Shown here piece by piece: positions 1,665-24,018 of a stretch of DNA of 50,991 nucleotides. This DNA comes from Planctomycetota bacterium (GTDB lineage: Bacteria > Planctomycetota > Phycisphaerae > WQYP01): the NCBI GenBank assembly GCA_021808105.1, contig JAKBCC010000003.1, positions 1 to 50,991 of the forward strand. Reading direction: 5' to 3'. The translations under genes and the position numbers were made by a program. The notes beneath the pieces are model-generated. The model did not search any database. It was given only the letters and a program-made list of their open reading frames with translations, and was not told the origin of the DNA. Each line of letters starts with the position of its first letter. The first letter of the stretch is position 1.

Positions 1665-2150
1665 TTAACCGACGGACTTTTGCCGTGGTTCTTCTGTCGG
1701 GTGCAAAATCTCCGCAGCCGGTCCGCTATAAATTGCACGCTTGCGATTCATGGCCATATTTGCTAATTCATCGGGCCGCGCATTGGAGCTGCGATAAACA
1801 TGGCGAATCGACCAGGCGGGAATTTGCTGTAATAAATCCATAGCTTGTTGATACAGAGGTCTTAGCGTGGCGTTTTTCACGCGATAAATTCCCAGAATTT
1901 GTCGTACCACCAATTCGCTGTCGGCGCGAATTTCCAGTTTCCGTGCTCCCAGCTTCACTGCCGCATCAGCACCGCGAATTAAACCGCTGTACTCGGCGTA
2001 GTTGTTGGTATGGGTGCCCAGATAATCGCCGAGTTCATAGACCAGATCGCCTGCGGGCGTTGTAAGCGTGACACCGCACCCCGCCGGCCCCGGATTCCCC
2101 CGTGATCCACCGTCAAACTGCATCACCAGCGTTGAATAGTCCAATGACAT
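1665..2150 (-). CDS. rnhA: Ribonuclease HI family protein
   Basis: FDGGSRGNPGPAG, TNNYAEY, DSELVVRQ and N..PDELAN acidic active-site motifs. Confidence 0.88.
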   Translation of the reverse strand: MSLDYSTLVMQFDGGSRGNPGPAGCGVTLTTPAGDLVYELGDYLGTHTNNYAEYSGLIRGADAAVKLGARKLEIRADSELVVRQILGIYRVKNATLRPLYQQAMDLLQQIPAWSIRHVYRSSNARPDELANMAMNRKRAIYSGPAAEILHPTEEPRQKSVG

Positions 2151-9526: not shown

Positions 9527-9593
9527 GGCAATATTTTAGCCGTTATGGTAGCGTCCGATTGGTTGCTGGAAAAAGAAAGGACAGTGTGTCAAG

Positions 9594-10262
9594 ATGCCTC
9601 GAACAGCGCGGGCCGCCATGGGCGGCGTTATTTATCATGTTTGTAACCGCGGGAGAAACGGTAAGACGCTGTTTCGCTCATCGGATGATTTTCAGGCGTT
9701 TGTGGAATTACTTATTGAAGGTACAGCCCAGGCGTCGGTTGAAGTTTTTGGCTTTTGCCTCATGCCGAATTACTGGCACATGATTTTGCGGCCGCGTGGA
9801 AAGAGGGATTTATCCAAATATATGTCCTGGGTGGCCAATACCCATGTCAAGCGGCACCGGGCACGCTACCCGCGTTCGCTGGGGAAAGTGTATCAGGGGC
9901 GGTATGAAAGCCTGCCGGTGCAAAAAGGGGAAGATTTTGTCCAGCTGGTTGGATATATCGAAGCGATCCCGCTGCGTGCACGGTTCGTGCAGCGTGCTGA
10001 GGATTGGGCCTTTTCCAGTCTCGGTTGCGAGAAAAAGCCCGCCCGGCAACTGCTTAGTGCGTGGCCGGTTGACCGACCGGAGCGGTGGAAAAAATGCGTC
10101 AATAAGCCGCTGGATAATTCTGTGCGCGGCCGCCTGGAAGTGAGCCTGAAGCGTGCCCGGCCTTTAGGCGACGATCAGTGGAGTGCTAAGATCGCCAAGA
10201 AAACAAACACGGAACATAAGCTCCGGCCGATCGGGCGTCCTGTGAAAAAACGTGCTGGATAA
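9594..10262 (+). CDS. REP-associated tyrosine transposase (Y1_Tnp/RAYT) homologue with altered HUH motif
   Basis: MPRTAR…YHVCNRG, F.S.DDFQAF, FCLMPNYWH, QGRYES, WAFSS and C-terminal RPIGRP are all typical of RAYTs. Confidence 0.82.
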   Translation: MPRTARAAMGGVIYHVCNRGRNGKTLFRSSDDFQAFVELLIEGTAQASVEVFGFCLMPNYWHMILRPRGKRDLSKYMSWVANTHVKRHRARYPRSLGKVYQGRYESLPVQKGEDFVQLVGYIEAIPLRARFVQRAEDWAFSSLGCEKKPARQLLSAWPVDRPERWKKCVNKPLDNSVRGRLEVSLKRARPLGDDQWSAKIAKKTNTEHKLRPIGRPVKKRAG

Positions 10263-10266
10263 TTGA

Positions 10267-12307: not shown

Positions 12308-13327
12308 ATGACCCATAGCACCAGCACCACGACATCCGCGGCACTGCCGCACAATCGCCTGGGAATTAATTACCGCTCTGTGCCGCCGCGGAAAATTCCC
12401 GGATTAATTATTGACGCCCATACGCACACGCGCGAGCCGGCGCTGACGCGGGAATTTCTGCGTGCGGCGGATGCGTATGGCATTGGCAAAATCTGGACCA
12501 TGGCACCACTGGAAGATGTGGATGCACTTCGCGAAGCATTTCCCGGACGATTTGAATTTATTGCCATTCCAAAATGGCAGAATCTGGGGCCCGGTGAAGA
12601 TTTTATAAAAGAATGGCGAAGACGCATTGATGAATTCTACGCCCGCGGTTCGCGCTTAATTAAATTTCACAACGCACCCGGCACCCAGAAGCGCATGGGC
12701 ATGAATCTCGATCATCCGGAAATGCAAAGCATCATGCGGCAGGCGTATGATCTGGGCTATCACTTTATGACCCATGTCGGCGATCCGAAAGCCTGGTTTG
12801 GTGAAGGAAAAAAATACGACCCGAAGGATGGGCAGAAAAGTTTTATTGAACAATTTGCCATGCTCGATCGCATGTTGGAGAAATATCCCGATCGCATCCA
12901 CCTGGGTGCCCATATTGGCGGCAGCGTGGAGGAACTTGAATTGTTGCAAGGGCGACTCGACCGCTTCCCCCATTACATCCTGGATTCCAGCGCCACCAAA
13001 TGGATCATTCGCGGCATCGCCCAGCAGCCCCTTGAGCCGGTGCGGGAATTCTTTATCCGTAATCAGGATCGGATTCTCTTTGGCAGTGATCTGGTGGTTG
13101 GCGAAAAATATGACTTTGATCATTATGTCAGTCGTTACTGGGTGCATCAGCAGCAATGGGAAACCTCTTACTCCGGTGAATCCCCCATTGACGACCCGGA
13201 TGCCGAAGATGGTATACCCCGACTGCACGGCCTGAATTTGCCCGCTGAGGTGCTGGAAAAGCTGTACCGCACCAACGCCGAAAAATGGCTCTTCGGGAAA
13301 GTCCTGGGGCAATCTTCAGTGAGCTAA
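12308..13327 (+). CDS. Amidohydrolase family protein (Amidohydro_2)
   Basis: IDAHTH, KFH, THVGD, AHIGG and RILFGSD metal-binding motifs. Confidence 0.82.
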   Translation: MTHSTSTTTSAALPHNRLGINYRSVPPRKIPGLIIDAHTHTREPALTREFLRAADAYGIGKIWTMAPLEDVDALREAFPGRFEFIAIPKWQNLGPGEDFIKEWRRRIDEFYARGSRLIKFHNAPGTQKRMGMNLDHPEMQSIMRQAYDLGYHFMTHVGDPKAWFGEGKKYDPKDGQKSFIEQFAMLDRMLEKYPDRIHLGAHIGGSVEELELLQGRLDRFPHYILDSSATKWIIRGIAQQPLEPVREFFIRNQDRILFGSDLVVGEKYDFDHYVSRYWVHQQQWETSYSGESPIDDPDAEDGIPRLHGLNLPAEVLEKLYRTNAEKWLFGKVLGQSSVS

Positions 13328-13392
13328 TGCCCTTTATCGCATTGGGGTGCCGGGCGTTTCAAGGGACTGAAAATTATTATTTGTGTTTTTGC

Positions 13393-13422
13393 TTGACATG
13401 AAGATGAGTGGTGGCATATAAT
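13393..13422 (+). promoter_or_regulatory. Sigma70 consensus promoter
   Basis: TTGACA (13393-13398), 18-nt spacer, TATAAT (13417-13422) in an AT-rich intergenic region. Confidence 0.8.
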
Positions 13423-13430
13423 TTGATCCA

Positions 13431-13444
13431 TGTAAGCGGTTTCA
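13431..13444. promoter_or_regulatory. LacI-family operator O1
   Basis: TGTAAGCGGTTTCA, an imperfect palindrome with central CG of the LacI/CcpA type, just downstream of the -10 box. Confidence 0.72.
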
Positions 13445-13618
13445 TTATTGCCGCGAAAGGGTGGAAGCCCTGGGGAATCTTTTCTGGAAATCTTTCAGAA
13501 TAGTCCAAGGCGTTCCGTAAAAGGTCAATTTGGTTAAGTAGGAGCTTGTCCGCCGCAGGAATCTTGGTGCGCGTTGTGAAAGGCAGATCAGAACAGCGCA
13601 TGTTTTTATACCCCGCAA

Positions 13619-13632
13619 TGTAAGCGGTTGCA
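13619..13632. promoter_or_regulatory. LacI-family operator O2
   Basis: TGTAAGCGGTTGCA, 13/14 identical to O1 and 188 bp downstream. Confidence 0.7.
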
Positions 13633-13716
13633 TCATCGGGTATAGATATTGATATGGATTTTTCAAGGCTGTGAGGCTTTTCTTTTCCGGTGCGTCATTT
13701 TTTTGGGAGGTCACTG

Positions 13717-14706
13717 ATGAAGACAAACATTATTTTATCCTGTGCTTCCGCGCGGGACCAGCGCTATGCGCCGGACAGCGGACGGATTATACCGTTGCGG
13801 ACTATCATCCCGGGCCGTCGGATCCATGCAAATGGGACCGCCTTCACATTGGTAGAATTACTGGTTGTCATATCAATTATTGCGCTATTAATTTCGCTGC
13901 TCCTGCCCGCTTTAGCCGAGGCCAGAGCACTGGCGGAATCCACGGTATGTCTTTCGAACCAGCAGCAATTGGCCCTGTCCAATCTTGAATTCAGCCAGAT
14001 CCATCAAGGTTTTATCCTGAAAGACTGGTTCAACGGGATATGGCCCAATGGCGTTGAAGACGGGCCATTCTACGGATCAGCTCAGGTTTGGGACGGAAAA
14101 TCCACGAGCACGGTCACCAATTGGTCATGGGATCAGTACTTGTGCCGTAAATATCTCGATGGGAACCTGGGAATTTTCCGTGATCCGGCGGACAGCACCA
14201 ATAACACGCGATGGAATAGTGCCACGGCGGAAATTCCCGGTTTTGTTCCGGCGTCTTACCGAATGGACTTCAGTAATCAGCCGGGTGATCCCGGAAACCC
14301 CGGAGAACCCTACCAATTCGCGACGGCTTACAATGTTCGTCAGGTGTCCAATCCGCAGGAATCCATTCTGATATGTGATGGCGACTATTACGGTCCCTAT
14401 TGGCAGTACGAAGGCGGGATTGACATCGTCAATGGTCCCGATACTCAGTGGGGAGCATCGCCGACCTATCCGACTGTTGTCGGCAATATTGAAACCGTCG
14501 GGGGCAACGTGGCGGCGATCCGGCACATGGGAAAAGCGAACTATGCCTTTCTCGACGGCCACGCGGAAACACTGGCGTACGCGCAGACCTGGCAGCCGAT
14601 TGGCTCTCCTCTGAGCGTCGGCGGGTACAAGGTCTACGAGGCTCCGACCATGTGGCGACAAATTTTCAGCCCCGGATATTTCCCGAATTATCCGGGTACG
14701 CCGTAA
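13717..14706 (+). CDS. Prepilin-type N-terminal cleavage/methylation protein with H-X9-DG domain (DUF1559-like)
   Basis: AFTLVELLVVISIIALLISLLLPAL, C.SNQQQL and C-terminal RHMGKANYAFLDGHAE. GGGAGG RBS. Confidence 0.9.
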   Translation: MKTNIILSCASARDQRYAPDSGRIIPLRTIIPGRRIHANGTAFTLVELLVVISIIALLISLLLPALAEARALAESTVCLSNQQQLALSNLEFSQIHQGFILKDWFNGIWPNGVEDGPFYGSAQVWDGKSTSTVTNWSWDQYLCRKYLDGNLGIFRDPADSTNNTRWNSATAEIPGFVPASYRMDFSNQPGDPGNPGEPYQFATAYNVRQVSNPQESILICDGDYYGPYWQYEGGIDIVNGPDTQWGASPTYPTVVGNIETVGGNVAAIRHMGKANYAFLDGHAETLAYAQTWQPIGSPLSVGGYKVYEAPTMWRQIFSPGYFPNYPGTP

Positions 14707-14957
14707 CGCCATCATGGCGAAGGGGGCAGCCCCAGCCACGCACAGAGGCGGAAAAAGTTTAAGGTGTTTTAGTAAGGCGGAGTAGTTAGAGATCACATGC
14801 AGTTGTGGAAGCTTCCGGTCGAAACATGGGATTTCAGAAGTCCACACATAGGATAGTCTTTTGAACCGGATTGGCTTAATGGAAATGTTTGACGGTTAGC
14901 TCCGGAGGGATGTTACCTTTGAGAAGTTGGCCGGGGGTTTGTTCATGGGAGGTCTTT

Positions 14958-15968
14958 ATGACCACGCATTTCAAGTTTCTCACAGTGTTGGCCGCCGGAT
15001 CGCTTTTCGCAGCCGGTGCAGCTGGTGCGGCTCCGTTTCTGACCGAGTCGTTCAACTACGGCAATTTAACGCCATCGGGCGGGGGTTACCAGGACATGTC
15101 AGGCCAGACCGGCGGCACGGGTTTCCAAGGCGGGTGGGTAACCAACTATGTCAATACAGTCGGCCCCAATTCCACCTACACCAATACCGGCTTGACATTT
15201 GGAAGCGAAGGTGTGGGTGGCGCAGCCTATTCCGGTATGCCCGATCTGGGCAATGGCGGTGGGGAATGGTCTCTGTTCAGCCGGCAACTCAATGTCACTG
15301 CCACCGGCACCGTTTACGGCAGCTACCTTTTTAATGCCACCAGCGCTCCCTATAGCGGCGTCGCGGATATGGTGATCGGAAACGAGAATTCCACCGACGG
15401 CGGACCGATTGCGCTAGGTGCGCAGGAATATGGAAGCGGCACATCCGGGGTCGCGAATGCCTGGAAGGCCGGCAGCAGAATTTCCGGGCATACGGCAACG
15501 GTCACCGGACCTACGCTAACCAACAACACAACCTACAAATATCTTTTCCAACTTGGTAATGTTGGCGGAACATCCGGGCCTGAGACTATTAATTCATGGA
15601 TACTCACTGCGGCGCAGTACAACACATTTGCAACGGCCGGCCAGCTTAACGAAGTTGCCCTGAACGCCGCGACGACGGGCACGGCAGCAGGCGACGTAAC
15701 TGAGATACTTTCAAATTCCTACACGCCCAGCACGTATGGCAGCATCACACCGACTTCCTGGCTGACTTTTTACGTGTTCAATGCCAGTAAGGTTGCCGCC
15801 AGCAAGGTGATGTTTGATGAAGTGGCGATGTCACAGGTAAGTCTCGCGGATGCCACGACCGCTGCTGCTGCGGTTCCCGAATCCACATCCGTTGCCGTCA
15901 TGGGATTGGGGCTGTTGGCGGGTGGGTTGCTGCTGCGACGGCGTACCATCCAGCGCTTTGTCGCTTAA
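14958..15968 (+). CDS. PEP-CTERM sorting-domain surface protein
   Basis: Signal peptide, Gly/Thr/Ser/Asn-rich body, and C-terminal VPESTS + TM helix + RRR. GGGAGG RBS. Confidence 0.88.
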   Translation: MTTHFKFLTVLAAGSLFAAGAAGAAPFLTESFNYGNLTPSGGGYQDMSGQTGGTGFQGGWVTNYVNTVGPNSTYTNTGLTFGSEGVGGAAYSGMPDLGNGGGEWSLFSRQLNVTATGTVYGSYLFNATSAPYSGVADMVIGNENSTDGGPIALGAQEYGSGTSGVANAWKAGSRISGHTATVTGPTLTNNTTYKYLFQLGNVGGTSGPETINSWILTAAQYNTFATAGQLNEVALNAATTGTAAGDVTEILSNSYTPSTYGSITPTSWLTFYVFNASKVAASKVMFDEVAMSQVSLADATTAAAAVPESTSVAVMGLGLLAGGLLLRRRTIQRFVA

Positions 15969-16043
15969 GCCGGGAATTCCGGACCCTACACATGAGAAGT
16001 TCGCCGAAGGACTTTAACCAGGACTGACTGTGGCGACTCAACG

Positions 16044-16082
16044 GGTTGGGATGAAGGCTTACCGCCTTCGTCCCAACCTTTT
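16044..16082 (+). terminator. Rho-independent terminator
   Basis: 15-bp stem GGTTGGGATGAAGGC/GCCTTCGTCCCAACC (one G-U pair), 5-nt loop, followed by TTTT. Confidence 0.7.
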
Positions 16083-16266
16083 AATCATGGGAATTGTTTA
16101 TTAAACCGGGAGGGTAATCCCTGGGAATTATTGGCCGGGGATTTAATAAACGTATTATCGCTGCTTAATGCGGGAAAGCGGCTAAAATAATGTTGGTCCA
16201 GTTGGTACGATGAATACGTAAAAACAGGTGCGCCGCACCGAAGCGATGAGCGAACAGGAATTTGTA

Positions 16267-17340
16267 ATGAATCCACGGAATCCGAAAAAAAACAGTGCCC
16301 TCCCTGAGAAACGCGATAATAGCCGGCGTCCCACAATTTACGACGTCAGCAGACGTTCCGGATTTTCAACGGCAACCGTTTCAAGAGTCTTCGCAAACTA
16401 CCAGGGGGTTTCTCAATCCACGCGTGATCGCGTGCTGGAAGTCAGTCGCGATCTGGGCTTTTCCCCCAGTCACATCGGTCGCTGCCTGGCGCAGGGAAGC
16501 ACCGGGAATGTAGCCGTGATGTTTCCCGATATGGCCAGCGGCTTTTATGCTGAAGTACTGGCCGGGATTGATGAAGTTCTGGCGGAACACGGCTTTAATA
16601 CATTGACCGCATTTTACGGACGCGGACGGGATGCTAAATCAGTGTTCACGCGATTAAATACAGGCTTTCTGGCCGACGCTCTGATCATAGCCAGCTCCTA
16701 TGACATTGGTGACGTATCCCAATGGTCTGGAACGTGTGATACGCCCATGGTCCTCCTGGATCGTCCGCTGGCAAAAGCCGGAATAAGCACTGTGTGCATT
16801 GATAACGCCTCCGGGGTTGCGGCCATGGTCCGGCATCTGCACACGAACGGCCATCGTCACATCGCGGTCATTTCCGGTCCCGAAGGTACGTGGGATGCTG
16901 AACAGAGAATGGCCGGCTTCCGTGCAACGATGCGGGAAATCAAGCTCGATGTTAATCCCCTGCTGATCTGGGCCGGCAACTTCACATTTGAAAGCGGCCG
17001 CCATGCGATGCGGACGGCCCTGGCGGGGCGGCTATTGATGGACGCGGTTTTTTGTTTTAATGACGAGATGGCGTTAGGGGCGATTGCCGCCATCAATGAA
17101 GCGGGCTTGAAAGTTCCTGACGATATTGCAGTCGCGGGGTTTGACGGAATCTCCGCTGCTGAGGGTGTACAGCTCACGACTGTCGCCTGTCCGATGCGTG
17201 CGGTAGGGCGCAGTGCCGGAACTATGGCGGTTTCGCTGATAAAACGCACCGAGAATCCGTCGAACCAGATCATTCCGGTGCGCCTGGTTATTCGCCGTTC
17301 ATCAGGAAAGAGAACGGCCCATTGGACGAAGGCGATGTAG
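16267..17340 (+). CDS. LacI-family transcriptional regulator
   Basis: TIYDVSRRSGFSTATVSRV HTH, and a sugar-binding domain with FCFNDEMALG and VPDDIAVAGFD. Start uncertain (16246 or 16267). Confidence 0.95.
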   Translation: MNPRNPKKNSALPEKRDNSRRPTIYDVSRRSGFSTATVSRVFANYQGVSQSTRDRVLEVSRDLGFSPSHIGRCLAQGSTGNVAVMFPDMASGFYAEVLAGIDEVLAEHGFNTLTAFYGRGRDAKSVFTRLNTGFLADALIIASSYDIGDVSQWSGTCDTPMVLLDRPLAKAGISTVCIDNASGVAAMVRHLHTNGHRHIAVISGPEGTWDAEQRMAGFRATMREIKLDVNPLLIWAGNFTFESGRHAMRTALAGRLLMDAVFCFNDEMALGAIAAINEAGLKVPDDIAVAGFDGISAAEGVQLTTVACPMRAVGRSAGTMAVSLIKRTENPSNQIIPVRLVIRRSSGKRTAHWTKAM

Positions 17341-17374
17341 AGAACCCTGTCGGCTACGAAAGCATGGGCCTTGA

Positions 17375-18772
17375 ATGTTTGAAAGCAAAACGAAAGCCAG
17401 GTACTTGTTGCGGGCGTGGCCGGCGATTTTTGCCGGTTTGATATGTTTCTTAGCGGGTTGCAAGGCCCAAAGCCCTTCTGTGGCCGGTGCCGATCAGGCG
17501 GTTCAATCGCAAACGCGTTCCGTCCGCCGCCCAAGTCAACAGGTTTCGCGTAATCGGAATCAGTTTCTGGCCGGTATTGAACACCGGAGTTTCGCCTATT
17601 TCTGGGATGAGATGGATCAACATAACGGCCTGATTCCCGACCGCGCGCGGGCGGCGGGGGGTGGTGCCCGCATTGCGAGCATTGCTGCGGAGGGTTTCGG
17701 CTTAACGGCTCTCTGTATCGCCGACGAGCATCATTGGGAACCACACGCGGAGATTTATGCACGGGTACTTCGAGCACTGGATTTTTTCCGTTACCACGCG
17801 CAATGCGTGCATGGCTTTTATTACCATTTTCTGGCATTAAACAGCGGTCGTCGGCAATGGAAGTGCGAGGTTTCATCTATTGACACAGCTCTGCTGATGG
17901 CGGGGGTCCTGACGGTCCGCGAGCATTTTTCCGGGACCGCGGCCTCCCGGATCGCCGCCTATCTCTATCGCCGTGTGGACTGGCCCTGGATGCTTAACGG
18001 AAAAAAAACACTTTCAATGGGTTGGAAACCCGGCAGCGGATTTTTGCCGTACCGATGGAAACAATTTAACGAGGGACCGCTGATCTACCTGCTGGGTATC
18101 GGGTCGCCAAGCCATCCGCTGCCGGCGGCAAGCTGGGCGGCCTGGCAACGCGGCCCGCTATGTACGTATGGGGGTTACACATTCATGTGCTGTCCGCCGT
18201 TGTTTACGCACCAATATATGCAGGCATGGTTTAACCTGCGCGGACTTCGCGATCATTTTGCCGATTATTTCAGAGATTCGCGCTATGCAACGCTGGCTAA
18301 TCGTGAACTGTGTATAAGCCTGGGCAAACGCTTTTCCGATTACGGGCCCGATGCCTGGGGAATCACCGCCTCGGACTCGGCCTCGGGCTACCGGGCATGG
18401 GGAGGTCCGCCCGCAACGCCCGGTATCAACGGAACGTTGGTTCCATGTGCCGCCGGAGGCAGTATCCCCTTTGCGCCACGGCAATGTGTTGCGGATTTAA
18501 GACGCCTCAAGAAGAAATACTCGTCTATGCATATCTACGGCCGGTACGGGTTTGTGGATGCTTTCAATCCGCTTACCGGCTGGGTGGATAAGGACGTTCT
18601 GGGAATTGATCAGGGGATTACCTTGATCATGGCGGAAAATTATCGTACGGGGTTTGTCTGGAAAACCTTTATGGCTGATCCGGTAGCGCAACGGGCGTTG
18701 CGCCGCGCCGGATTTCGCAAAATGACGGCGACCGACAAGCTCCCGAAAAACACGTCTGTTTTCAGACGCTAA
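17375..18772 (+). CDS. GH144-like endo-beta-1,2-glucanase (glucoamylase/DUF3131-like), lipoprotein
   Basis: FLAGC lipobox. Motifs SIAAEGFGL, GFYYHF, EVSSIDTALLMAG, PLFTHQY, WGITAS, GRYGFVDAFN and GIDQG…AENYRTG. Confidence 0.8.
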   Translation: MFESKTKARYLLRAWPAIFAGLICFLAGCKAQSPSVAGADQAVQSQTRSVRRPSQQVSRNRNQFLAGIEHRSFAYFWDEMDQHNGLIPDRARAAGGGARIASIAAEGFGLTALCIADEHHWEPHAEIYARVLRALDFFRYHAQCVHGFYYHFLALNSGRRQWKCEVSSIDTALLMAGVLTVREHFSGTAASRIAAYLYRRVDWPWMLNGKKTLSMGWKPGSGFLPYRWKQFNEGPLIYLLGIGSPSHPLPAASWAAWQRGPLCTYGGYTFMCCPPLFTHQYMQAWFNLRGLRDHFADYFRDSRYATLANRELCISLGKRFSDYGPDAWGITASDSASGYRAWGGPPATPGINGTLVPCAAGGSIPFAPRQCVADLRRLKKKYSSMHIYGRYGFVDAFNPLTGWVDKDVLGIDQGITLIMAENYRTGFVWKTFMADPVAQRALRRAGFRKMTATDKLPKNTSVFRR

Positions 18773-18865
18773 GGCCACTGGAACACCAGCCGATTATAGC
18801 GACGTGTGAAGGCCCGAATGTCCGCATGGAAATCCGTAGAGAACGGTAAACGCCCTGGAGTTTTT

Positions 18866-21301
18866 ATGAACAACTGTATCTCGTCACGTACCCTCCACCT
18901 TATGGATCGCATCTGTAAAGGGTTTTCCCGCTACGGAAAATATGCAGGTCCCCGGCGGCTTGCAAAAAGAGTTGACTGCAAGAAACATGTCAACGTCACA
19001 GCGGGAGTATGGCGGCCCGGTATTTTGGTTATGGTCGTGTGGGCCTTCGGGGCCGCAACGCCGTTGCATGCCGGGGCCGTCGCGCCGGCACTATCTCCTG
19101 TGGCAGGCAGCGGAAGAGCCTGGATGAATCCGCGGTTGTCCGTAGACCAACGCGTATCGGATTTGCTGTCGCGCATGAGTCTGCAGGAAAAGATCGGCCA
19201 GTTACTGCAGATTGACTGGAATAAGAAATTGGCCGTGATCGCCCCGGCGATCAAGGCGGGTCAGGTTAGCTCGCTTCTGGGGTTCAATCCGCCGCACGGC
19301 AAATTATCGGGTAACAATTATTGGGCTTATCGGATTTCACAATATAACGCCGCGCAGAAACTGGCGGTTGAAGATACTCGTTTGGGTATTCCACTTCTGT
19401 TTGGCAGCAACGTGTTGCATGGATTCCGGACATCTTTTCCCATTCCATTGGCGCTGTCGTGCTCCTGGGATGCGCAACTGCTTAAGCGTTGCGCGCGGGT
19501 GTCGGCGCGTGAAGCTTCGGCGGCGGGTGTGGACTGGACCTTTGCGCCCATGATTAATATTTCGCATGATCCACGCTGGGGGCGGGTGGCGGAAAGTTTC
19601 GGCGAAGATCCTTATCTGAACTCCATTTTGACAGCGGCAGCGGTACGAGGTTACCAGGGTAAAAATCCAGCCGCGCCGGGGCATCTGATTGCCTGCCTCA
19701 AACATTATGTTGGATATGGCGCTGTGGAAGGAGGGCGGGATTACAATGCGGCGGAAATTACCCGATTTACGCTCTGGAATTATTATTTGCCCGCGTACCA
19801 CGCGGGCATCCAGGCGGGAGCCTTAACGGTGATGAGCTCCTTTAATTCAATCGGTGGCACACCCTGCACCGCCGACCGTTACACCCTGCACGATATTTTG
19901 AGACGCGATTGGGGTTTCCACGGTTTTGTTGTCAGTGATTGGCAGTCGGTGAAACAGCTCATTGACTGGGGCTATGCCTATGATAATGCGGACGCCGCGC
20001 GCCGGGCATTGTATGCCGGTGTGGATATGGAAATGGCCAGCGACACGTACAATACGCTGGCCCGACAGGTGGCTGAAGGAAAGGTTTCATTGGCCACTGT
20101 CAATGCCGCTGTGCGACGGGTGCTGCGCGTGAAGTTTGAAAGTGGGTTATTTGAGCATCCCTACGCCAGCACAACACGATGGCATCATGCTTTTCTGAAA
20201 CCCGCTTATAAAAAATGCGCGTTGCAGGCGGCCGAGCGGTCGTGCGTGTTGCTTAAAAACACGGGCGATATTTTGCCGCTGGTCAAAATTCCACCTCGTA
20301 TCGCGATTCTTGGCCCGCTGGCTGACAGCCGATCGGAATTTCTTGGCTGTTGGCACAGTCAGGGCATCGCGAAAGGTATGCAGTCCTTGCCGCAATGTCT
20401 GCGCCAGGCTCTGCCGGCCAATGTTATTATCTCGGTGGTGCGTACGGGTATGAGTCATACGCATTATTTTCACCGCGCCGTTGCCGCGGCGAAGCAATCC
20501 GATCTTATCATCATGATGGTCGGTGAGAAATCTTCAATGAGCGGGGAGAACACCAGTCGGGTTCGCATTGGATTGCCGGGGCAGCAGCAGCGTCTGTTCG
20601 ATGAGGTGGCGGCTACCGGAAAACCCATTATTACGCTGCTGTTTAACGGCCGGCCCTTAGCAATTCCCAATGTGATCAAGAAATCCCAAGCCGTTCTGGA
20701 ATGCTGGCAGTTGGGCACCGAAACCGCCCCGGCGATATCGAATATATTGCTGGGAAAATATAATCCTTCCGGCAAACTCACCATGGATTTTCCAAGGTCG
20801 ATCGGGCAGATACCCGTCTATTACGATCACCTGAATACCGGGCGGCCAAAACTCGGTAAGTTTATTGACGGATCGCGCCAACCGGAGTTCTGCTTTGGCT
20901 ATGGGCTGTCGTACACCCACTTCACTTTAGGTGCGGTACGATTAACTGCCCCAAGGCTGCGAATCGGTGGAACTATCCGCGCGCATGCGGTGGTCGTAAA
21001 TTCAGGCAGCTGCGCCGGCACCGAAATTGTCCAACTTTATATCCGAGGTCTGTATTTCAAGGATGGCGGCCGCCCCGTGCGGCAGTTGGTGGCCTTTCAA
21101 CGAATCCATCTTCTCCCGGGTCAGCGAAAGACACTTACATTCACGTTGGGGGATCGTCAGTTGGGGTATTACAGTTCCGCCGGGAAATGGCTTGTTGATC
21201 CCAGCCATTTTGATGTTTGGATTTCATCGGATTCCCAGTCGGGTAAGCCGGCGTCTTTTGATCTTGTGGTCAGTGAACGTCGCACCGCGCGGAGGGAATA
21301 A
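18866..21301 (+). CDS. GH3 beta-glucosidase (BglX-like) with Fn3-like C-terminus
   Basis: RLGIPL, DPRWGRVAESFGEDP, KHY, nucleophile VVSDW, MSGE and FGYGLSYT motifs. Start uncertain; a signal-like segment precedes the mature region. Confidence 0.92.
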   Translation: MNNCISSRTLHLMDRICKGFSRYGKYAGPRRLAKRVDCKKHVNVTAGVWRPGILVMVVWAFGAATPLHAGAVAPALSPVAGSGRAWMNPRLSVDQRVSDLLSRMSLQEKIGQLLQIDWNKKLAVIAPAIKAGQVSSLLGFNPPHGKLSGNNYWAYRISQYNAAQKLAVEDTRLGIPLLFGSNVLHGFRTSFPIPLALSCSWDAQLLKRCARVSAREASAAGVDWTFAPMINISHDPRWGRVAESFGEDPYLNSILTAAAVRGYQGKNPAAPGHLIACLKHYVGYGAVEGGRDYNAAEITRFTLWNYYLPAYHAGIQAGALTVMSSFNSIGGTPCTADRYTLHDILRRDWGFHGFVVSDWQSVKQLIDWGYAYDNADAARRALYAGVDMEMASDTYNTLARQVAEGKVSLATVNAAVRRVLRVKFESGLFEHPYASTTRWHHAFLKPAYKKCALQAAERSCVLLKNTGDILPLVKIPPRIAILGPLADSRSEFLGCWHSQGIAKGMQSLPQCLRQALPANVIISVVRTGMSHTHYFHRAVAAAKQSDLIIMMVGEKSSMSGENTSRVRIGLPGQQQRLFDEVAATGKPIITLLFNGRPLAIPNVIKKSQAVLECWQLGTETAPAISNILLGKYNPSGKLTMDFPRSIGQIPVYYDHLNTGRPKLGKFIDGSRQPEFCFGYGLSYTHFTLGAVRLTAPRLRIGGTIRAHAVVVNSGSCAGTEIVQLYIRGLYFKDGGRPVRQLVAFQRIHLLPGQRKTLTFTLGDRQLGYYSSAGKWLVDPSHFDVWISSDSQSGKPASFDLVVSERRTARRE

Positions 21302-21491
21302 CTCATTATTGCGTCGGATAATGTCGGTCAAATTCGAGCCTGAACGGCGGTCGTTGTGCGCGCATTTCTGCAAGCGTCCCAAAAAAAATATCGTCTTAAT
21401 ATTTTTCGCAACCCAGCCGATATGACATGGTTACTGCTGCGCGCTGGGCCTGCGTTATAGGCCGGGCGTGCGCTGCTTGCGAGGTTGTAGG

Positions 21492-22394
21492 ATGCGAAAG
21501 AATAATCAACGCGCCGGCGATTCAGACTGCGGAATCTTGCCAACTGTCAGAGCGTGGAATGCGCCTGGAGGTCAAAGCGTCCGCGGATTTTCCCTCATAG
21601 AAATGCTGGTCGTGCTGCTGATTATCGTGATTCTAATTTCCATCTTGCTGCCGGCAATTTCGCGGGCGCGGGAGCTGGCACGCACTGCCGCCTGTGAGGC
21701 GAGTCTGCGCAGTTTAGGTCAGGTGACGTTGGAATATATTAATCAATCGCAGGGGGTCTTGCCCTATGGAACCTACGGCAACCCCAAATTTGTGGTGAGT
21801 TCCTATAATTCATACTTCGGAGAGTGGGCTAATCTGGATTTTTATCTTTTGGTCGGCCCGCCGGTGCTGATGACGAATAATGGCGTCATTGGCGAAAATA
21901 TTCCCCCGGATTTAGCGGATAAATGGGCGTCCATCTTCTGGTGCCCGGATCGCGTGGAACCGATGGTCGCCCAATGGGGTCTTAATTACGCGGCGAATCC
22001 TAATGTGTTTCTGGTTCCCATTACCAATCCCATTACCGGCGATGCCCTGAATCAGAGTCTCAATTACAGCGCCATCGCTGATCCGGCGCAGGTTATTGAA
22101 ATCGGCGATACCAATCAGAGTTTCCCCGGCGGCAATTGCGCCTCATTTCTATTTTCCTGGACGCCCAGTCAATTATCCTGGCAGTATGGCAGTTATACGT
22201 CTGCAACCACCATCCCCGTGAATCCGGGAAATACCGACGCCACAACCTCGATTATCAATCATCAGGGCCTGCGCTATCGTCATAATTCATATTCGCCTAC
22301 CACCGGCGACGCCAACGCCACATTTTGTGATGGCCACGTGGAGTCCATTCCGCAAAATGGATTGCATGTGTCTAATGTGCTTCCTGGAAATTAA
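21492..22394 (+). CDS. Prepilin-type N-terminal cleavage/methylation protein with H-X9-DG-type domain (DUF1559-like)
   Basis: RGFSLIEMLVVLLIIVILISILLPAISRARE, FWCP and C-terminal RYRH…ANATFCDGHVE. Confidence 0.9.
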   Translation: MRKNNQRAGDSDCGILPTVRAWNAPGGQSVRGFSLIEMLVVLLIIVILISILLPAISRARELARTAACEASLRSLGQVTLEYINQSQGVLPYGTYGNPKFVVSSYNSYFGEWANLDFYLLVGPPVLMTNNGVIGENIPPDLADKWASIFWCPDRVEPMVAQWGLNYAANPNVFLVPITNPITGDALNQSLNYSAIADPAQVIEIGDTNQSFPGGNCASFLFSWTPSQLSWQYGSYTSATTIPVNPGNTDATTSIINHQGLRYRHNSYSPTTGDANATFCDGHVESIPQNGLHVSNVLPGN

Positions 22395-22619
22395 TTAATC
22401 ATAGATGCTTGTCTTCGGCTAACGTGCGTTCCGACGTACACTTAACCGGCTGCTGAAGAGTAGAGCTTTTGCGCCCTGAAATACAGTCTGTGATGACGGC
22501 TGAATTCCCAAAAACCCATGCCGATTTCGGCACCTGGAGTTTTGCGGGTTTCATCTGACCCAAAAAGTCTACTTCACGCTACAATAAGGAGCTTAGATAG
22601 CGGTTGCAGGATGCAGTGA

Positions 22620-23168
22620 ATGAAACCCAATGAAACGCCCCAAAAAATTCTGAAAGTGCCCCGTCTGGCGGGATGGAGCGCAGTATTAACAGTGCTGGCG
22701 GCCATGATCCTGGCCCTCTGTTTTGAGATGCACGGCGATGTGCGCGGCCGCACCGCCCGATATCCTAACCTGCCGCAGGCGAACGTGATGCTGGGACATA
22801 CAACCGTCAAACTCTGGGTGGCGGCGTCCACGCGTACGCGGGATCGCGGCTTGATGTTTATTCACAAAATGCCCAACAACTGCGGTATGTTGTTTGTATT
22901 TCGCCGCATCAGGCCGCAAACTTTCTGGATGAAACATACCTTGATTCCGCTTGATGTGATTTTTCTTAATCAACATGGCGTCATTGTGCGGCACTACTTC
23001 ATGCCGCCCGATAATGGAAAAAAGCGATATCCCAGCGGCCAGCCGATCCATTACGCAATCGAACTCAACGCCGGTGAATTTCAACGCCTGCACTTGCGCG
23101 ACTCCATGCACATAAGCATTCCAAAACGATATTCACCTCCATCCCGGAAAGCGACCGGTGCGTCATGA
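22620..23168 (+). CDS. DUF192 family protein
   Basis: R.RGLMF, GMLFVF, FWMKHTLIPLDVIF and YAIELNAG motifs; N-terminal membrane anchor. Confidence 0.9.
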   Translation: MKPNETPQKILKVPRLAGWSAVLTVLAAMILALCFEMHGDVRGRTARYPNLPQANVMLGHTTVKLWVAASTRTRDRGLMFIHKMPNNCGMLFVFRRIRPQTFWMKHTLIPLDVIFLNQHGVIVRHYFMPPDNGKKRYPSGQPIHYAIELNAGEFQRLHLRDSMHISIPKRYSPPSRKATGAS

Positions 23169-23181
23169 TCTGGAGGCCTCT

Positions 23182-24018
23182 GTGAATACAAGATCCGCCT
23201 CCGGGCGACCGCGCAAAGGCTCGGGATTTTTAAGCCGACGCTACCGTCCTAAATCAAGTACGAGCTGGATATTAGCCGTCCTGATTCTGATCGCTCTGAT
23301 TATTGCTGCCATCCTGGCGTTGATCCTTCTTCCCCCGTACTGGTATCGTCCAATTCGTACCATGAGTGATGCGGTTTATAACCAGTCTGATCACGCTCAG
23401 GCCTCCCTGATGGCCTTAAGGAATAAACTGCGAAAGCCCCATGTCGGAACGATTACCTGGACCATTACCCAACGCGAAGTGAATAGCTTGCTGGCGGTTG
23501 CGTATCGCGTGGAGAAAAAGAAGAAAACACCGCCGCGTAAGCTCCCTGGATTAACCGACCCGTTCGTCCGGTTCACTGACAATCAAATTACTTTTGCCGT
23601 ACGTGATAACCGAATGCCGGGCCGGCCCGTAGCCAGTGCAGGCGTCAATGTGGCCTTACTGCCTGATCTTGGCTCTGGACCGCGGGCGCGTATTACCATC
23701 AATGCTTTGCATGTCGGTGATCTGCCGTTGCCGCCTTCGCTGCTGATCAACCGTTTGAAAACATTGCTGCCGCGTTTGGCACCTGTGGTGGAAAAAATTA
23801 TTGATGTGTATGCCGGTCCGCGTTATGCCCGCGTTGCCACGCCGCAAATTGTTCATTCGGTTGCCGCCATATTTTCGGGCAGGCCATTCCCCACGGAATT
23901 GCGACTCAACCATCGCAAACTGGTGATCGACAAGCTGATCATCCACGGCCCGTCGGTGGATGCGGCCGGCCATGCGCAACCGGCGGCCCTGACATTTGAA
24001 CTGGTGCCGGAGCCGTAA
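23182..24018 (+). CDS. Hypothetical membrane-anchored protein
   Basis: GGAGG RBS before GTG 23182; single N-terminal TM helix; in an apparent operon with its neighbours. Confidence 0.7.
   Translation: MNTRSASGRPRKGSGFLSRRYRPKSSTSWILAVLILIALIIAAILALILLPPYWYRPIRTMSDAVYNQSDHAQASLMALRNKLRKPHVGTITWTITQREVNSLLAVAYRVEKKKKTPPRKLPGLTDPFVRFTDNQITFAVRDNRMPGRPVASAGVNVALLPDLGSGPRARITINALHVGDLPLPPSLLINRLKTLLPRLAPVVEKIIDVYAGPRYARVATPQIVHSVAAIFSGRPFPTELRLNHRKLVIDKLIIHGPSVDAAGHAQPAALTFELVPEP

What the first reader, a model, noticed from the sequence alone, without database searches (positions are those of the whole stretch)
13393..22394. Transporter-less, pilin-bracketed beta-1,2-glucan utilisation locus
Seen: one co-oriented block of promoter plus operators, prepilin/H-X9-DG protein, PEP-CTERM surface protein, LacI, GH144-like lipoprotein, secreted GH3 and a second prepilin/H-X9-DG protein, inserted between housekeeping genes. 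Known: GH144 endo-beta-1,2-glucanase paired with a GH3 glucosidase is the enzyme core of beta-1,2-glucan loci, which in Bacteroidota carry SusC/SusD and in Firmicutes an ABC transporter. DUF1559-type pilin-like proteins are greatly expanded in planctomycetes and their function is unresolved. Inference: the two pilin-like proteins and the PEP-CTERM protein take the place of SusCD, capturing glycan on a type IV pilus-like fibre or surface layer. This would be a planctomycete-style polysaccharide locus with a predictable substrate, which makes it testable.
Basis: partly seen in the sequence, partly recalled or inferred. Interest (0 to 1): 0.8.

Follow-up and report, generated by a model that had tools for sequence, protein, structure and literature searches.

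The report
Pilin-led beta-1,2-glucan utilisation operon
A planctomycete gene cluster for digesting beta-1,2-glucan is switched on together with its own pilin-like and lectin-like surface proteins, giving concrete gene candidates for how these bacteria capture polysaccharides without the usual outer-membrane importers.

Summary
On the + strand a perfect sigma-70 promoter (13393-13422) and two LacI-type operators precede a prepilin/H-X9-DG gene, a PEP-CTERM protein, LacI, a GH144 lipoprotein with the catalytic Glu, a BglX-like GH3 and a second prepilin-like gene.

The enzyme core is an ordinary beta-1,2-glucan system. The front end is not.
- A prepilin-like gene lies within 7 kb of GH144 in 17 of 20 PVC-labelled or Phycisphaerae-class loci. 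It lies there in 0 of 68 other loci, 49 of which carry a TonB-dependent receptor instead.
- The same operator sits in front of the pilin gene in related genomes.
- One pilin subfamily is co-inherited with GH144.
- In this genome, 10 of 23 pilin loci have a glycoside hydrolase within two ORFs, against 4 of 30 random loci.

"Transporter-less" and "bracketed" are local traits, not conserved ones. Glycan binding and fibre formation remain untested.

I read the locus as a PVC-style polysaccharide utilisation locus, a new variant of a known kind. This scan has noted the same cassette plan before on other PVC DNA. I found no paper describing it.

The parts
13393..13422 (+). Sigma-70-type promoter TTGACA-18-TATAAT
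   Evidence: 12 of 12 consensus positions; the only perfect match in 13000-23200.
13431..13444 (+). LacI-type operator O1 (TGTAAGCGGTTTCA), 9 bases after the -10 box
   Evidence: one of the only two copies with 0-1 mismatch in the 3.86-Mb genome. The same motif lies upstream of the pilin gene in L002 and L003.
13619..13632 (+). LacI-type operator O2 (TGTAAGCGGTTGCA), 188 bases downstream of O1 and about 85 bases before the pilA1 start
   Evidence: An identical 14-mer sits before the pilin genes of L002 (11909) and L003 (626).
13717..14706 (+). pilA1: prepilin-type, H-X9-DG pilin-like protein (ORF opens at GTG 13690; ATG 13717 follows GGGAGG)
   Evidence: TIGR02532 and TIGR04294 score just above cut-off. 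AF2 model has pLDDT 76.5 and pTM 0.81. Fold matches are dominated by type IV pilins and pseudopilins, best Z 5.1. 5530 homologues at E <= 0.001 among 8000 candidates.
14958..15968 (+). PEP-CTERM-anchored secreted protein with a probable ConA-like lectin body (ORF opens at 14889)
   Evidence: TIGR02595 scores 18.5 against a cut-off of 16. Only 10 homologues found. Model pLDDT is 49.9. Foldseek and VIA matches are all ConA-like lectins, glucanases or lyases, best Z 9.9. ESM Atlas neighbours are PEP-CTERM, LamG and legume-lectin clusters.
16228..17340 (+). LacI-family repressor
   Evidence: PF00356 plus Peripla_BP_3/1. No NCBIfam equivalog reaches its cut-off.
17375..18772 (+). GH144 endo-beta-1,2-glucanase-like lipoprotein
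   Evidence: PF10091 E = 1.8e-68. 8xul (XCC2207) 1.4e-72 and 5gzh 5.1e-51. Glu233 aligns with the mutated catalytic residue of the E239Q chain (PMC12102758 passages). Lipobox LAGC29.
18806..21301 (+). GH3 beta-glucosidase, BglX-like, with N-terminal signal-like segment (start codon uncertain)
   Evidence: PF00933, PF01915 and PF14310. NF011678 BglX scores 641.9 bits, just under its 666 cut-off. 5xxl periplasmic beta-glucosidase 1.3e-167; Lin1840 3e-139.
21468..22394 (+). pilA2: second prepilin-type DUF1559 protein (prepilin motif from 21585; RH-x15-DGH variant)
   Evidence: PF07963, PF07596 and TIGR02532 above cut-off; no TIGR04294 hit. Conserved at 82% in L001 only. Head is 28-33% identical to own paralogues on C31, C180 and C162.

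Best explanation
This is a LacI-repressed operon for using beta-1,2-glucan in a Phycisphaerae-type planctomycete. It is built to a PVC-specific plan: sugar regulator, surface-anchored lectin-like protein, an operon-private pilin-like protein, then exported glycanases.

Shown here:
- the genes, the promoter and the two operators;
- the GH144 and GH3 identities;
- the conserved linkage and shared operator of the pilin gene;
- the presence of prepilin peptidase, PilB/GspE-, GspF- and PilT-type proteins, a secretin and two exosortases in the genome;
- the apparent lack of TonB-dependent receptors.

Inferred mechanism:
1. Without inducer, LacI binds O1 (at the transcription start) and O2 and shuts the promoter.
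2. Sophoro-oligosaccharides release LacI.
3. PilA1 and PilA2 are cleaved by the prepilin peptidase. The shared type IV filament machine builds them into or onto a fibre.
4. The PEP-CTERM protein is placed on the cell surface by exosortase.
5. Together they hold beta-1,2-glucan at the surface. PilT-type retraction helps bring it to or through the outer membrane.
6. The GH144 lipoprotein cuts the glucan to oligosaccharides, and the GH3 enzyme releases glucose.
7. Unlinked ABC systems import the products.

The pilin and lectin pair thus does the outer-membrane job that a TonB-dependent receptor (or SusC/SusD) does in other phyla.
For: Enzymes; catalytic Glu.

Regulation:
- 12/12 promoter.
- Two operators unique in the genome.
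- The same operator lies directly upstream of the pilin gene or the PEP-CTERM-pilin unit in L002, L003 and L175, L176, L177, L181.

Linkage:
- pilin -> PEP-CTERM (CBM_4_9) -> GH144 -> GH3 occurs in L002-L005 with different flanks and different regulators.
- LacI -> (PEP-CTERM) -> pilin -> GH144 occurs in L007, L012, L013.
- All 8 class-level loci with GH144 at 47-53% identity have a pilin. It is immediately upstream in 6 of 8.
- Of 79 GH144 loci, 8 have a pilin, 50 a TBDR, 0 both and 21 neither. Fisher p = 1.6e-4; relatedness is not corrected for.

Orthology: the L013 pilin head was searched against whole genomes G144 (41 pilin matches) and G130 (30). The only full-length matches are the three GH144-adjacent pilins (3e-51, 1e-42, 2e-21). 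All others match only the N-terminal 40-70 residues or score E >= 1e-9.

Genome-wide plan in this genome:
- 28 pilin-like genes lie at 23 loci.
- A glycoside hydrolase lies within +-2 ORFs at 10 of 23 loci, against 4 of 30 random loci (p = 0.016).
- A Peripla_BP_3 regulator lies within +-2 ORFs at 6 of 23, against 0 of 30 (p = 0.004).
- 15 of 65 PEP-CTERM-like ORFs lie within 3 kb on the same strand as a pilin gene. The expected share is 2.5-5% (p <= 6e-7).
- A second cassette on C162 has the same promoter-plus-two-operators layout.

Machinery:
- Two PilT-family ATPases above the NCBIfam cut-off, PilB/GspE-like and GspF-like genes, and a 1314-aa secretin.
- An A24 peptidase and two exosortases.
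- No short canonical pilin was found.
- No TonB Plug or OMP_b-brl_4 match.

Pilin features: E5 and P22 are invariant in 58 homologues, and the model has a pilin-type fold.

Literature: dextran bound to pili-like fibres in two planctomycetes, with no genes named (PMC5394234, passages). Two reviews call the players unknown (PMC12673574 and PMC12078418, passages).
Against: - No binding, localisation or expression data exist. No RNA holder is listed.
- The pilin heads next to orthologous GH144 genes fall into at least five unalignable subfamilies. pilA1 and pilA2 are not homologous in the head to the pilins of L002-L004, although GH144 and GH3 are 70-79% identical. The head is therefore not tied one-to-one to the substrate.
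- No sugar-binding fold was detected in the pilin head. Foldseek gave nothing at E <= 0.001, and the best VIA Z is only 5.1.
- The PEP-CTERM model is of low confidence (pLDDT 49.9). Its fold matches (Z 8-10) are only a little above what the tool calls common.
- 13 of 23 pilin loci in this genome show no glycoside hydrolase within two ORFs, so the family is not restricted to glycan operons.
- The hydrolase-adjacency test is only moderately significant. I read the +-2 ORF counts from the tables by hand.
- A secretion role fits most of the genomic evidence equally well.
Confidence: 0.47

Rival explanations
1. Export or display helpers. The operon-private pilin-like proteins are pseudopilins of a type II secretion-like machine. 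They help the operon's own exported proteins (GH144 lipoprotein, GH3, PEP-CTERM protein) across or onto the outer membrane, rather than capturing glycan.
For: - NCBIfam gives weak GspG, GspH and ComGC hits.
- Fold matches include EpsG (Z 3.8) and PulG (Z 3.5).
- GspE-like and GspF-like genes are present.
- All three neighbours carry export signals.
- Type II secretion was reported as up-regulated on fucoidan in a planctomycete (PMC11685898, one passage).
- The conserved linkage and shared regulation fit this reading as well.
Against: - Orthologous cargo (GH144 at 70-79% identity) goes with non-homologous pilin heads.
- Acidobacteriota-type loci export the same enzymes without a private pilin. 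What they carry instead is an importer, a TonB-dependent receptor.
- Two PilT-family retraction ATPases pass their cut-off.
Confidence: 0.25
2. Substrate origin rival. The locus trims or recycles the cell's own periplasmic cyclic beta-1,2-glucan rather than foraging for foreign glucan.
For: - The genome encodes a 2937-aa NdvB-type cyclic beta-1,2-glucan synthase (8rf0, 1928 bits).
- Of the 13 class genomes with an orthologous GH144, 7 also have the synthase. Among the other 188 genomes, 38 have it (p = 0.011, not corrected for relatedness).
Against: - The synthase was not found in 6 of the 13 genomes. Five of these are 92-99% complete: G006, G130, G144, G171, G178.
- In family f1, 19 of 27 genomes have the synthase but only 6 of 27 have GH144.
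- A repressor-controlled consensus promoter and surface-directed partners suit inducible foraging better.
Confidence: 0.12
3. Membrane-tethered binding proteins. The DUF1559 proteins stay in the inner membrane by their N-terminal helix and act as periplasmic solute-binding proteins that feed ABC importers. This is what the Pfam name SBP_bac_10 implies.
For: - Pfam name PF07596 SBP_bac_10.
- Two papers call them solute-binding proteins (PMC2754498 and PMC4807772, passages).
- ABC binding protein and permeases follow the pilin-GH144 pair in L007, L012 and L013.
Against: - Fold matches are pilins and pseudopilins, not periplasmic binding proteins.
- Glu5 and Pro22, hallmarks of assembled pilins, are invariant in 58 homologues.
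- Those same loci already encode a classical SBP_bac_1 binding protein.
Confidence: 0.1
4. No functional link. The pilin-like genes are merely abundant paralogues that happen to lie next to glycan genes.
For: The genome holds 28 paralogues, and 13 of 23 loci have no hydrolase within two ORFs.
Against: - The pilin-GH144 adjacency is conserved across three families and two phyla.
- The operator lies in front of the pilin gene.
- The only full-length homologues among 41 and 30 paralogues are the GH144-adjacent ones.
- Adjacency exceeds that of random control loci.
Confidence: 0.03

Closest known systems
Beta-1,2-glucan loci built on GH144 endo-beta-1,2-glucanase plus GH3 beta-glucosidase (Chitinophaga pinensis CpSGL, Xanthomonas XcSGL, Bacteroides BT_3567 region)
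   Same: The GH144 is close to XcSGL (8xul, 1.4e-72) and CpSGL (5gzh, 5.1e-51), and the catalytic Glu is kept. The GH3 is closest to 5xxl-5xxo (1.3e-167). That 5xxl is BT_3567, and that Bacteroidota loci carry SusC/SusD, is recalled and comes from no call.
   Different: No SusC/SusD or any TonB-dependent receptor is present in the locus, window or genome. A pilin-like and a PEP-CTERM protein head the operon instead.
Acidobacteriota-type GH144 - TonB-dependent receptor - LacI - GH3 loci (unpublished; seen here in L006 and 48 other non-PVC-labelled loci, plus L074, labelled Verrucomicrobiia)
   Same: The same enzyme pair (GH144 at about 50% identity, GH3 at about 41%) and a LacI regulator.
   Different: These loci carry a CarboxypepD_reg/OMP_b-brl_4 receptor. 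None of the 50 has a prepilin-like gene, and none of the 8 pilin-bearing loci has the receptor.
Type IV pilins and type II secretion pseudopilins (PilA, GspG/EpsG/PulG, ComGC)
   Same: Class III signal motif, Glu5, a long N-terminal helix and an alpha/beta head.
   Different: - The mature protein is about twice as long (269-288 aa).
- It carries an H-X9-DG C-terminal motif.
- There are 28 paralogues per genome.
- The genes sit in sugar-regulated catabolic operons, far from the assembly genes.
[quoted passage not shown] 2017)
   Same: The proposed job is the same: fibres bind a polysaccharide that then appears in the periplasm (PMC5394234, passages; PMC12078418, passage).
   Different: No genes were assigned there ('pilin' occurs 0 times). 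Those organisms are Planctomycetia and the substrate was dextran. Here the evidence is genomic only.
Firmicutes sophoro-oligosaccharide system (Listeria innocua Lin1840 GH3 with ABC transporter)
   Same: The GH3 matches Lin1840 at 3e-139. ABC binding protein and permeases accompany GH144 in L007, L012 and L013.
   Different: The window has no ABC genes and no GH94 phosphorylase in the locus. The layout of the Listeria locus is recalled, not checked here.

Membership tests
GH144 (endo-beta-1,2-glucanase) | Match to the family domain model (Pfam PF10091) above its curated cut-off | tested here: met
   230.8 bits against a cut-off of 27, E = 1.8e-68. dbCAN was not available.
GH144 (endo-beta-1,2-glucanase) | Full-length similarity to characterised members (XcSGL, CpSGL) | tested here: met
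   8xul 1.4e-72 over residues 25-448; 5gzh 5.1e-51.
GH144 (endo-beta-1,2-glucanase) | Clan-defining residues E239, F286 and Y367 of XcSGL (PMC12102758, passages) | tested here: inconclusive
   Glu233 aligns with the Gln of the E239Q chain, and a Phe aligns with the position I count as F286. The Tyr lies in a gapped stretch where the query has W, with a Y three residues before. The numbering offset of the chain is my inference.
GH144 (endo-beta-1,2-glucanase) | Hydrolysis of beta-1,2-glucan | not testable with these tools
   Needs an enzyme assay.
GH3 beta-glucosidase (BglX type) | GH3 N-terminal, C-terminal and Fn3-like domains | tested here: met
   PF00933 2.1e-71, PF01915 3.4e-44, PF14310 1e-17.
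GH3 beta-glucosidase (BglX type) | NCBIfam equivalog NF011678 above its cut-off | tested here: not met
   641.9 bits against a cut-off of 666. I file it as GH3, BglX-like, not as the equivalog.
Type IV pilin / pseudopilin class | Prepilin-type N-terminal cleavage/methylation motif with Glu5 | tested here: met
   TIGR02532: pilA1 16.4 and pilA2 24.2 against a cut-off of 16.3. Glu5 is invariant in 58 sequences. pilA1 has Ala, not Gly, before the Phe.
Type IV pilin / pseudopilin class | Pilin fold of the head domain | tested here: inconclusive
   The VIA list is dominated by pilins (best 6xxd, Z 5.1, rmsd 3.6, 119 aligned), but Z is low. Foldseek aligned only the helix.
Type IV pilin / pseudopilin class | Assembly into a filament | not testable with these tools
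   Only the assembly genes are shown to exist.
DUF1559 / H-X9-DG prepilin-associated family (PF07596, TIGR04294) | Match to PF07596 or TIGR04294 above cut-off | tested here: met
   pilA1: TIGR04294 19.7 against 19, with no PF07596 hit. pilA2: PF07596 24.7 against 23.3, with no TIGR04294 hit. Sources name the homologues H-X9-DG proteins.
PEP-CTERM / exosortase substrates | C-terminal PEP-CTERM sorting domain | tested here: met
   TIGR02595 18.5 against 16. The tail reads VPES here and VPEP in 10 of 10 homologues.
PEP-CTERM / exosortase substrates | Exosortase encoded in the genome | tested here: met
   Two PF09721 matches, 1.5e-55 and 7.6e-48.
Bacteroidota-type polysaccharide utilisation locus (SusC/SusD) | Adjacent SusC-like TonB-dependent transporter and SusD-like lipoprotein | tested here: not met
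   None in the window. No Plug or OMP_b-brl_4 match in the genome, which is 94.6% complete. SusD models were not searched genome-wide. I do not file it as a member; it may work like one.
LacI family repressor with operator control | LacI helix-turn-helix plus periplasmic-binding-protein-like sugar domain, and palindromic operators at the promoter | tested here: met
   PF00356 and PF13377. Two operators lie next to the promoter. Binding itself is not tested.

The most novel reading that the evidence does not exclude
The expanded DUF1559/H-X9-DG family of PVC bacteria is a repertoire of substrate-inducible pilins. Each glycan operon brings its own pilin and an exosortase-anchored lectin. One shared, PilT-retractable type IV filament machine turns these into glycan-specific 'fishing' fibres. 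The fibres replace TonB-dependent or SusC/SusD import at the outer membrane.

This locus would be the beta-1,2-glucan channel of that system. Pilin subfamily A (L013, L175, L180, L181, L007, L012) would be its widespread specific subunit.
Probability: 0.33. Interest if true: 0.9.

Novelty: new variant of a known kind. Interest (0 to 1): 0.74.

Why it matters
Two open questions meet in this locus.

1. How do planctomycetes get polysaccharides across the outer membrane? A 2025 review still calls the players unknown (PMC12673574, passage). A 2024 census says CAZyme clusters of the phylum are functionally uncharacterised, with 30-34% of cluster genes unassigned (PMC11131199, passages).
2. What does DUF1559 do? 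It is the largest paralogous family of these bacteria: 68 copies in Planctopirus, two of them essential, function unknown (PMC10632474, passage).

The locus ties a pilin-like gene and a lectin-like gene to enzymes whose substrate can be named, so binding, uptake and induction experiments can be designed directly. The complementary distribution with TonB-dependent receptors indicates which step the pair may replace.

If the reading holds, pilin plus PEP-CTERM pairs would serve as marker genes for PVC polysaccharide loci, as SusC/SusD do for Bacteroidota.

Tried and rejected
Steps that gave nothing or could not run:
There is no result.
- Expression: no RNA holder is listed for the stretch. The 8 DNA rows come from 2 studies, and I laid no reads.
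- The Pfam PF07596 search of the own genome found only 2 matches. The model is insensitive in this lineage, so I used a prepilin motif scan instead. It gave 29 hits; I dropped one 49-aa fragment, leaving 28.
- Foldseek on the pilin model gave nothing at E <= 0.001.
- The sequence search of PDB with the PEP-CTERM protein gave nothing meaningful (best E 0.019).
- Pairwise comparisons found similarity only in the sorting tail or the N-terminal helix. This held for the window PEP-CTERM protein against those of L013 and L003, for pilA1 against the L003 pilin, and for pilA1 against pilA2.
- The metagenome scan with the PEP-CTERM alignment gave only 3 loci. One (L136, 39% identity) has a pilin gene next to it. 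This is too few to count.
- Terminator-like and promoter-like counts in the region are not above the shuffles, so the operon ends are not defined.
I read the sequence instead.
- I considered a Tat signal for the GH3 (PRRLAK) and rejected it, because it lies about 20 residues before the hydrophobic segment.
- The search of earlier findings by place found nothing for this genome or for look-alike stretches.

Literature searches that found no description of pilin-like genes in PVC glycan operons:
- 'DUF1559': 4 papers.
- 'H-X9-DG': 1 unrelated paper.
- GH144 with Planctomycetes.
- prepilin / Planctomycetes / glycoside hydrolase / polysaccharide utilization.
- PEP-CTERM / CAZyme / pseudopilin.
- pilin-like / Planctomycetes / polysaccharide / crateriform.

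Subscription journals and supplements were not searched.

Full report
**What is there.**
The stretch 13393-22394 holds six co-oriented ORFs on the + strand.

Upstream lies a perfect TTGACA-18-TATAAT promoter at 13393-13422. It is the only 12/12 match in 13000-23200, although the number of promoter-like sites there (5) is below the shuffle mean of 8.9. Two near-identical LacI/cre-type operators follow, at 13431-13444 and 13619-13632. In the whole 3.86-Mb assembly, 20 sites match the operator core with up to 2 mismatches. These two are the only ones with 0 or 1.

The genes are:
- a prepilin-type H-X9-DG protein, pilA1 (TIGR02532 and TIGR04294 just over cut-off);
- a PEP-CTERM protein (TIGR02595 over cut-off; its body has no Pfam family);
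- a LacI repressor;
- a GH144 protein;
- a GH3 protein;
- a second prepilin/DUF1559 protein, pilA2.

pilA2 lacks a TIGR04294 hit and reads RH-x15-DGH. The flanks are housekeeping genes, and the 51-kb window holds no sugar transporter. The nearest relatives are records titled Planctomycetota and Phycisphaerae MAGs.

**The enzymes.**
The GH144 protein matches PF10091 at 1.8e-68. It also matches the solved GH144 enzymes XCC2207 (8xul, 1.4e-72) and the Chitinophaga endo-beta-1,2-glucanase (5gzh, 5.1e-51). 8xul is the E239Q catalytic mutant of XcSGL (PMC12102758, passages), and the window protein has Glu233 opposite that Gln. It carries a lipobox, L-A-G-C29.

The GH3 has the three GH3 domains. It scores 641.9 bits on the BglX equivalog, just under the 666 cut-off. 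It is closest to the periplasmic beta-glucosidase 5xxl-5xxo (1.3e-167) and to Lin1840 (3e-139).

The enzyme core is thus an ordinary beta-1,2-glucan degrading pair.

**The pilin-like proteins.**
pilA1 has 5530 homologues at E <= 0.001 among 8000 scored candidates. Sources name many of them H-X9-DG proteins. In an alignment of 58 sequences, Glu5, Pro22 and the DG of the C-terminal motif are invariant.

The AlphaFold model (pLDDT 76.5, pTM 0.81) finds nothing at E <= 0.001 with Foldseek. The exhaustive structural search returns a list dominated by type IV pilins and pseudopilins. The best is PilA4 (Z 5.1, rmsd 3.6, 119 aligned), with EpsG at Z 3.8 and PulG at Z 3.5. I therefore read an enlarged pilin fold. 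I found no separate lectin domain.

**The PEP-CTERM protein.**
Only 10 homologues were found. The model is poor (pLDDT 49.9).

All significant Foldseek rows are concanavalin-A-like lectins, glucanases or lyases. So are all 50 rows of the exhaustive search, where the best match is peanut lectin (Z 9.9, rmsd 3.8, 174 aligned). The language-model neighbours include LamG and legume-lectin PEP-CTERM clusters.

In related loci the protein at this place is a different, shorter PEP-CTERM protein with a CBM_4_9 domain.

**Is the pilin tied to the enzymes? Relatives.**
- L001 (GH144 at 88% identity) has the whole gene order.
- L002-L005 (65-74% over the whole match; 70-79% in the BLAST segments) have pilin -> PEP-CTERM/CBM_4_9 -> GH144 -> GH3. 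Their flanks are unrelated to each other. L002 has a LacI regulator, and L004 (with L005, which shares the adjacent ORF) an AraC-type one.
- A Planctomycetota MAG (L013) and two Verrucomicrobiota MAGs (L007, L012) have LacI -> (PEP-CTERM or unknown) -> pilin -> GH144, followed by an ABC binding protein and permeases.

A search of 201 genomes of the class found GH144 homologues (E <= 1e-40) in 26. I fetched 20 loci, one or two from each of 19 of the 20 matching genomes outside the window's own family.
- All 8 loci with a GH144 at 47-53% identity have a prepilin-like gene within 7 kb. It is immediately upstream on the same strand in 6, LacI is present in 6, and a PEP-CTERM-like ORF in 8.
- Of the 12 loci with distant GH144 paralogues, 3 have a pilin.
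- None of the 8 shows the GH3, so the pilin-GH144 pair is kept more widely than the GH144-GH3 pair.

The wider scan covered 79 loci, of which 11 have PVC labels in their titles. Eight loci have a pilin (all PVC-labelled), 50 have a homologue of a TonB-dependent receptor, none has both and 21 have neither. Three PVC-labelled loci lack a pilin:
- L016;
- L024, a 4.5-kb contig;
- L074, which has the receptor.

Counting the window, that makes 17 of 20 PVC or class loci with a close GH144.

**Shared regulation.**
The window's operator 14-mer recurs just upstream of the pilin gene in L002 and L003. Operators of the same family (at most 2 mismatches to the idealised palindrome) lie in two kinds of place:
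- before LacI in L174, L175, L176, L179 and L181;
- directly before the pilin gene or the PEP-CTERM-pilin unit in L175, L176, L177 and L181.

None was found in L178 or L180.

**Orthology of the pilin.**
Head domains next to orthologous GH144 genes fall into at least five groups that do not align with one another. pilA1 and pilA2 belong to two of them. Their nearest relatives among the sequences compared are own paralogues at 34% and 28-33% identity.

One group (L013, L175, L180, L181, L007, L012) spans two phyla. I searched whole genomes with the L013 head. G144 gave 41 pilin matches and G130 gave 30. The only full-length matches were the three GH144-adjacent pilins. The link is therefore inherited within subfamilies but has been re-made with different pilins. 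This argues against a strict one-head-one-substrate rule.

**The plan in this genome.**
A motif scan finds 28 pilin-like genes at 23 loci. I scanned 216 ORFs from 24 fetched loci: 22 pilin loci plus the second GH144 locus and the synthase locus. Before scanning I dropped ORFs under 110 aa and ORFs more than 30% overlapped by a longer one.

- A glycoside hydrolase lies within two ORFs at 10 of 23 pilin loci. They are C15 GH95, C28 GH53, C31 a GH13 branching-enzyme-like gene on the other strand, C46 CE8/GH28, C95 GH5, C122 GH27, C162 GH16, C201 GH5/GH2, C205 GH78, and the window.
- A Peripla_BP_3 regulator lies within two ORFs at 6 of 23 loci.
- Among 30 random loci (111 neighbour ORFs) the figures are 4 and 0. 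Fisher one-sided p is 0.016, or 0.033 without C31, for the hydrolases, and 0.004 for the regulators. One random locus fell on the second GH144 gene.
- Several pilin loci end at contig ends, which lowers their counts.
- Of 65 PEP-CTERM-like ORFs (a few are false), 15 lie within 3 kb on the same strand as a pilin gene, against 2.5-5% expected.

The C162 cassette reads PEP-CTERM/CBM_4_9, PEP-CTERM, pilin, GH16, LacI, GH16. It has its own TTGACA-17-TATACT promoter with two LacI-type operators.

**Machinery and what is missing.**
The genome has:
- seven T2SSE-type ATPase matches over the Pfam cut-off (an eighth lies below it). Two are PilT-family proteins above the NCBIfam cut-off, and there are PilB/GspE-like proteins;
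- two GspF-like proteins;
- one 1314-aa secretin;
- one A24 prepilin peptidase;
- two exosortases.

No short canonical pilin turned up. No TonB Plug or OMP_b-brl_4 match was found in the genome, which is 94.6% complete.

Sugar ABC systems homologous to the one in L013 exist on C177 and on C22, the latter next to a GH3-CBM6 gene.

**Whose glucan?**
The genome encodes a 2937-aa NdvB-type cyclic beta-1,2-glucan synthase. In the class sample, 45 of 201 genomes have it. Among the 13 genomes with the orthologous GH144, 7 have it and 6 do not. Self-turnover is therefore possible here but is not what the locus type needs.

**Reading.**
The best-supported view is a LacI-controlled beta-1,2-glucan utilisation operon whose front end does the outer-membrane work of capture, and perhaps uptake. 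The front end is the pilin-like and lectin-like surface proteins. Other phyla use a TonB-dependent receptor for that step.

The genes, the regulation sites, the linkage and the machinery are shown. Binding, fibre assembly, retraction-driven uptake and the inducer are inferred. A role of the pilins in exporting or displaying the operon's proteins fits much of the same evidence and is the main rival.

**Known or new.**
Fibres that bind dextran were seen in two planctomycetes, without genes (PMC5394234, passages). Reviews speak of pilin-like 'fishing rods' and of unknown players (PMC12078418 and PMC12673574, passages). DUF1559 is described as a large family of unknown function (PMC10632474, PMC4807772, PMC2754498, passages). 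A 2024 census of Planctomycetota CAZyme clusters does not mention pilins (PMC11131199, passages).

My six searches found no paper that describes pilin-like genes as parts of PVC glycan operons. Subscription journals and supplements were not covered.

This scan's own earlier notes report the same cassette plan on other PVC genomes. The present case adds four things:
- a nameable substrate;
- the complementary distribution with TonB-dependent receptors;
- the operator footprint;
- the whole-genome orthology test.

Noticed in passing
L103:4960-13773 (-) = G000:C105: A 2937-aa ORF matches cyclic beta-1,2-glucan synthase NdvB (8rf0, 1928 bits). The organism probably makes the polymer that the window's locus degrades. 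Homologues were found in 45 of 201 genomes of the class.
   Followed up: partly
L102:7869-9242 (-) and 9239-10711 (-) = G000:C8: A second GH144 gene (39% identical to the window's) lies directly next to a GH39 gene, with no pilin-like gene nearby.
   Followed up: no
L091:416-7600 (-) = G000:C162: A laminarin-type cassette with the same plan: TTGACA-17-TATACT promoter, two LacI-type operators, then PEP-CTERM/CBM_4_9, PEP-CTERM, pilin, GH16, LacI and a GH16 with its own PEP-CTERM tail.
   Followed up: partly
L100:140-9020 (+) = G000:C209: Another pilin-bracketed block: pilin, LamG_3/PEP-CTERM, two more PEP-CTERM proteins, BNR_4, an unknown 653-aa protein, pilin.
   Followed up: no
L007:9896-12955 and L012:5896-8895: In two Verrucomicrobiota MAGs the GH144 domain is fused to a DUF3131 domain and a CBM9 module in a protein of about 1000 aa.
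   Followed up: no
window 9594-10262 (+) and 1665-2150 (-): An IS200-like Y1 transposase gene lies just upstream of the PMT_2 gene, and an RVT_3 (RNase H-like) ORF lies further up.
   Followed up: no
window 46720-47646 (+): An ORF combines TPR repeats with two matches to the RNA polymerase alpha C-terminal domain, an unusual pairing.
   Followed up: no
L139:1900-6616 = G000:C55; L140:3140-6249 = G000:C49: PilB/GspE-like and PilT-family ATPase genes lie together. One PilB-like protein has an MshE-type cyclic-di-GMP binding motif. No pilin genes lie beside them.
   Followed up: partly
L123:824-5761 (-) = G000:C91; L108:471-3059 = G000:C198: Two of the random control loci held type III CRISPR (Csm/RAMP, Csm6) genes and a VgrG-like baseplate hub next to a pentapeptide-repeat protein.
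   Followed up: no
G156:C101:4910-7177: The NdvB-like synthase of a same-genus genome carries one in-frame TAG within the matched stretch.
   Followed up: no
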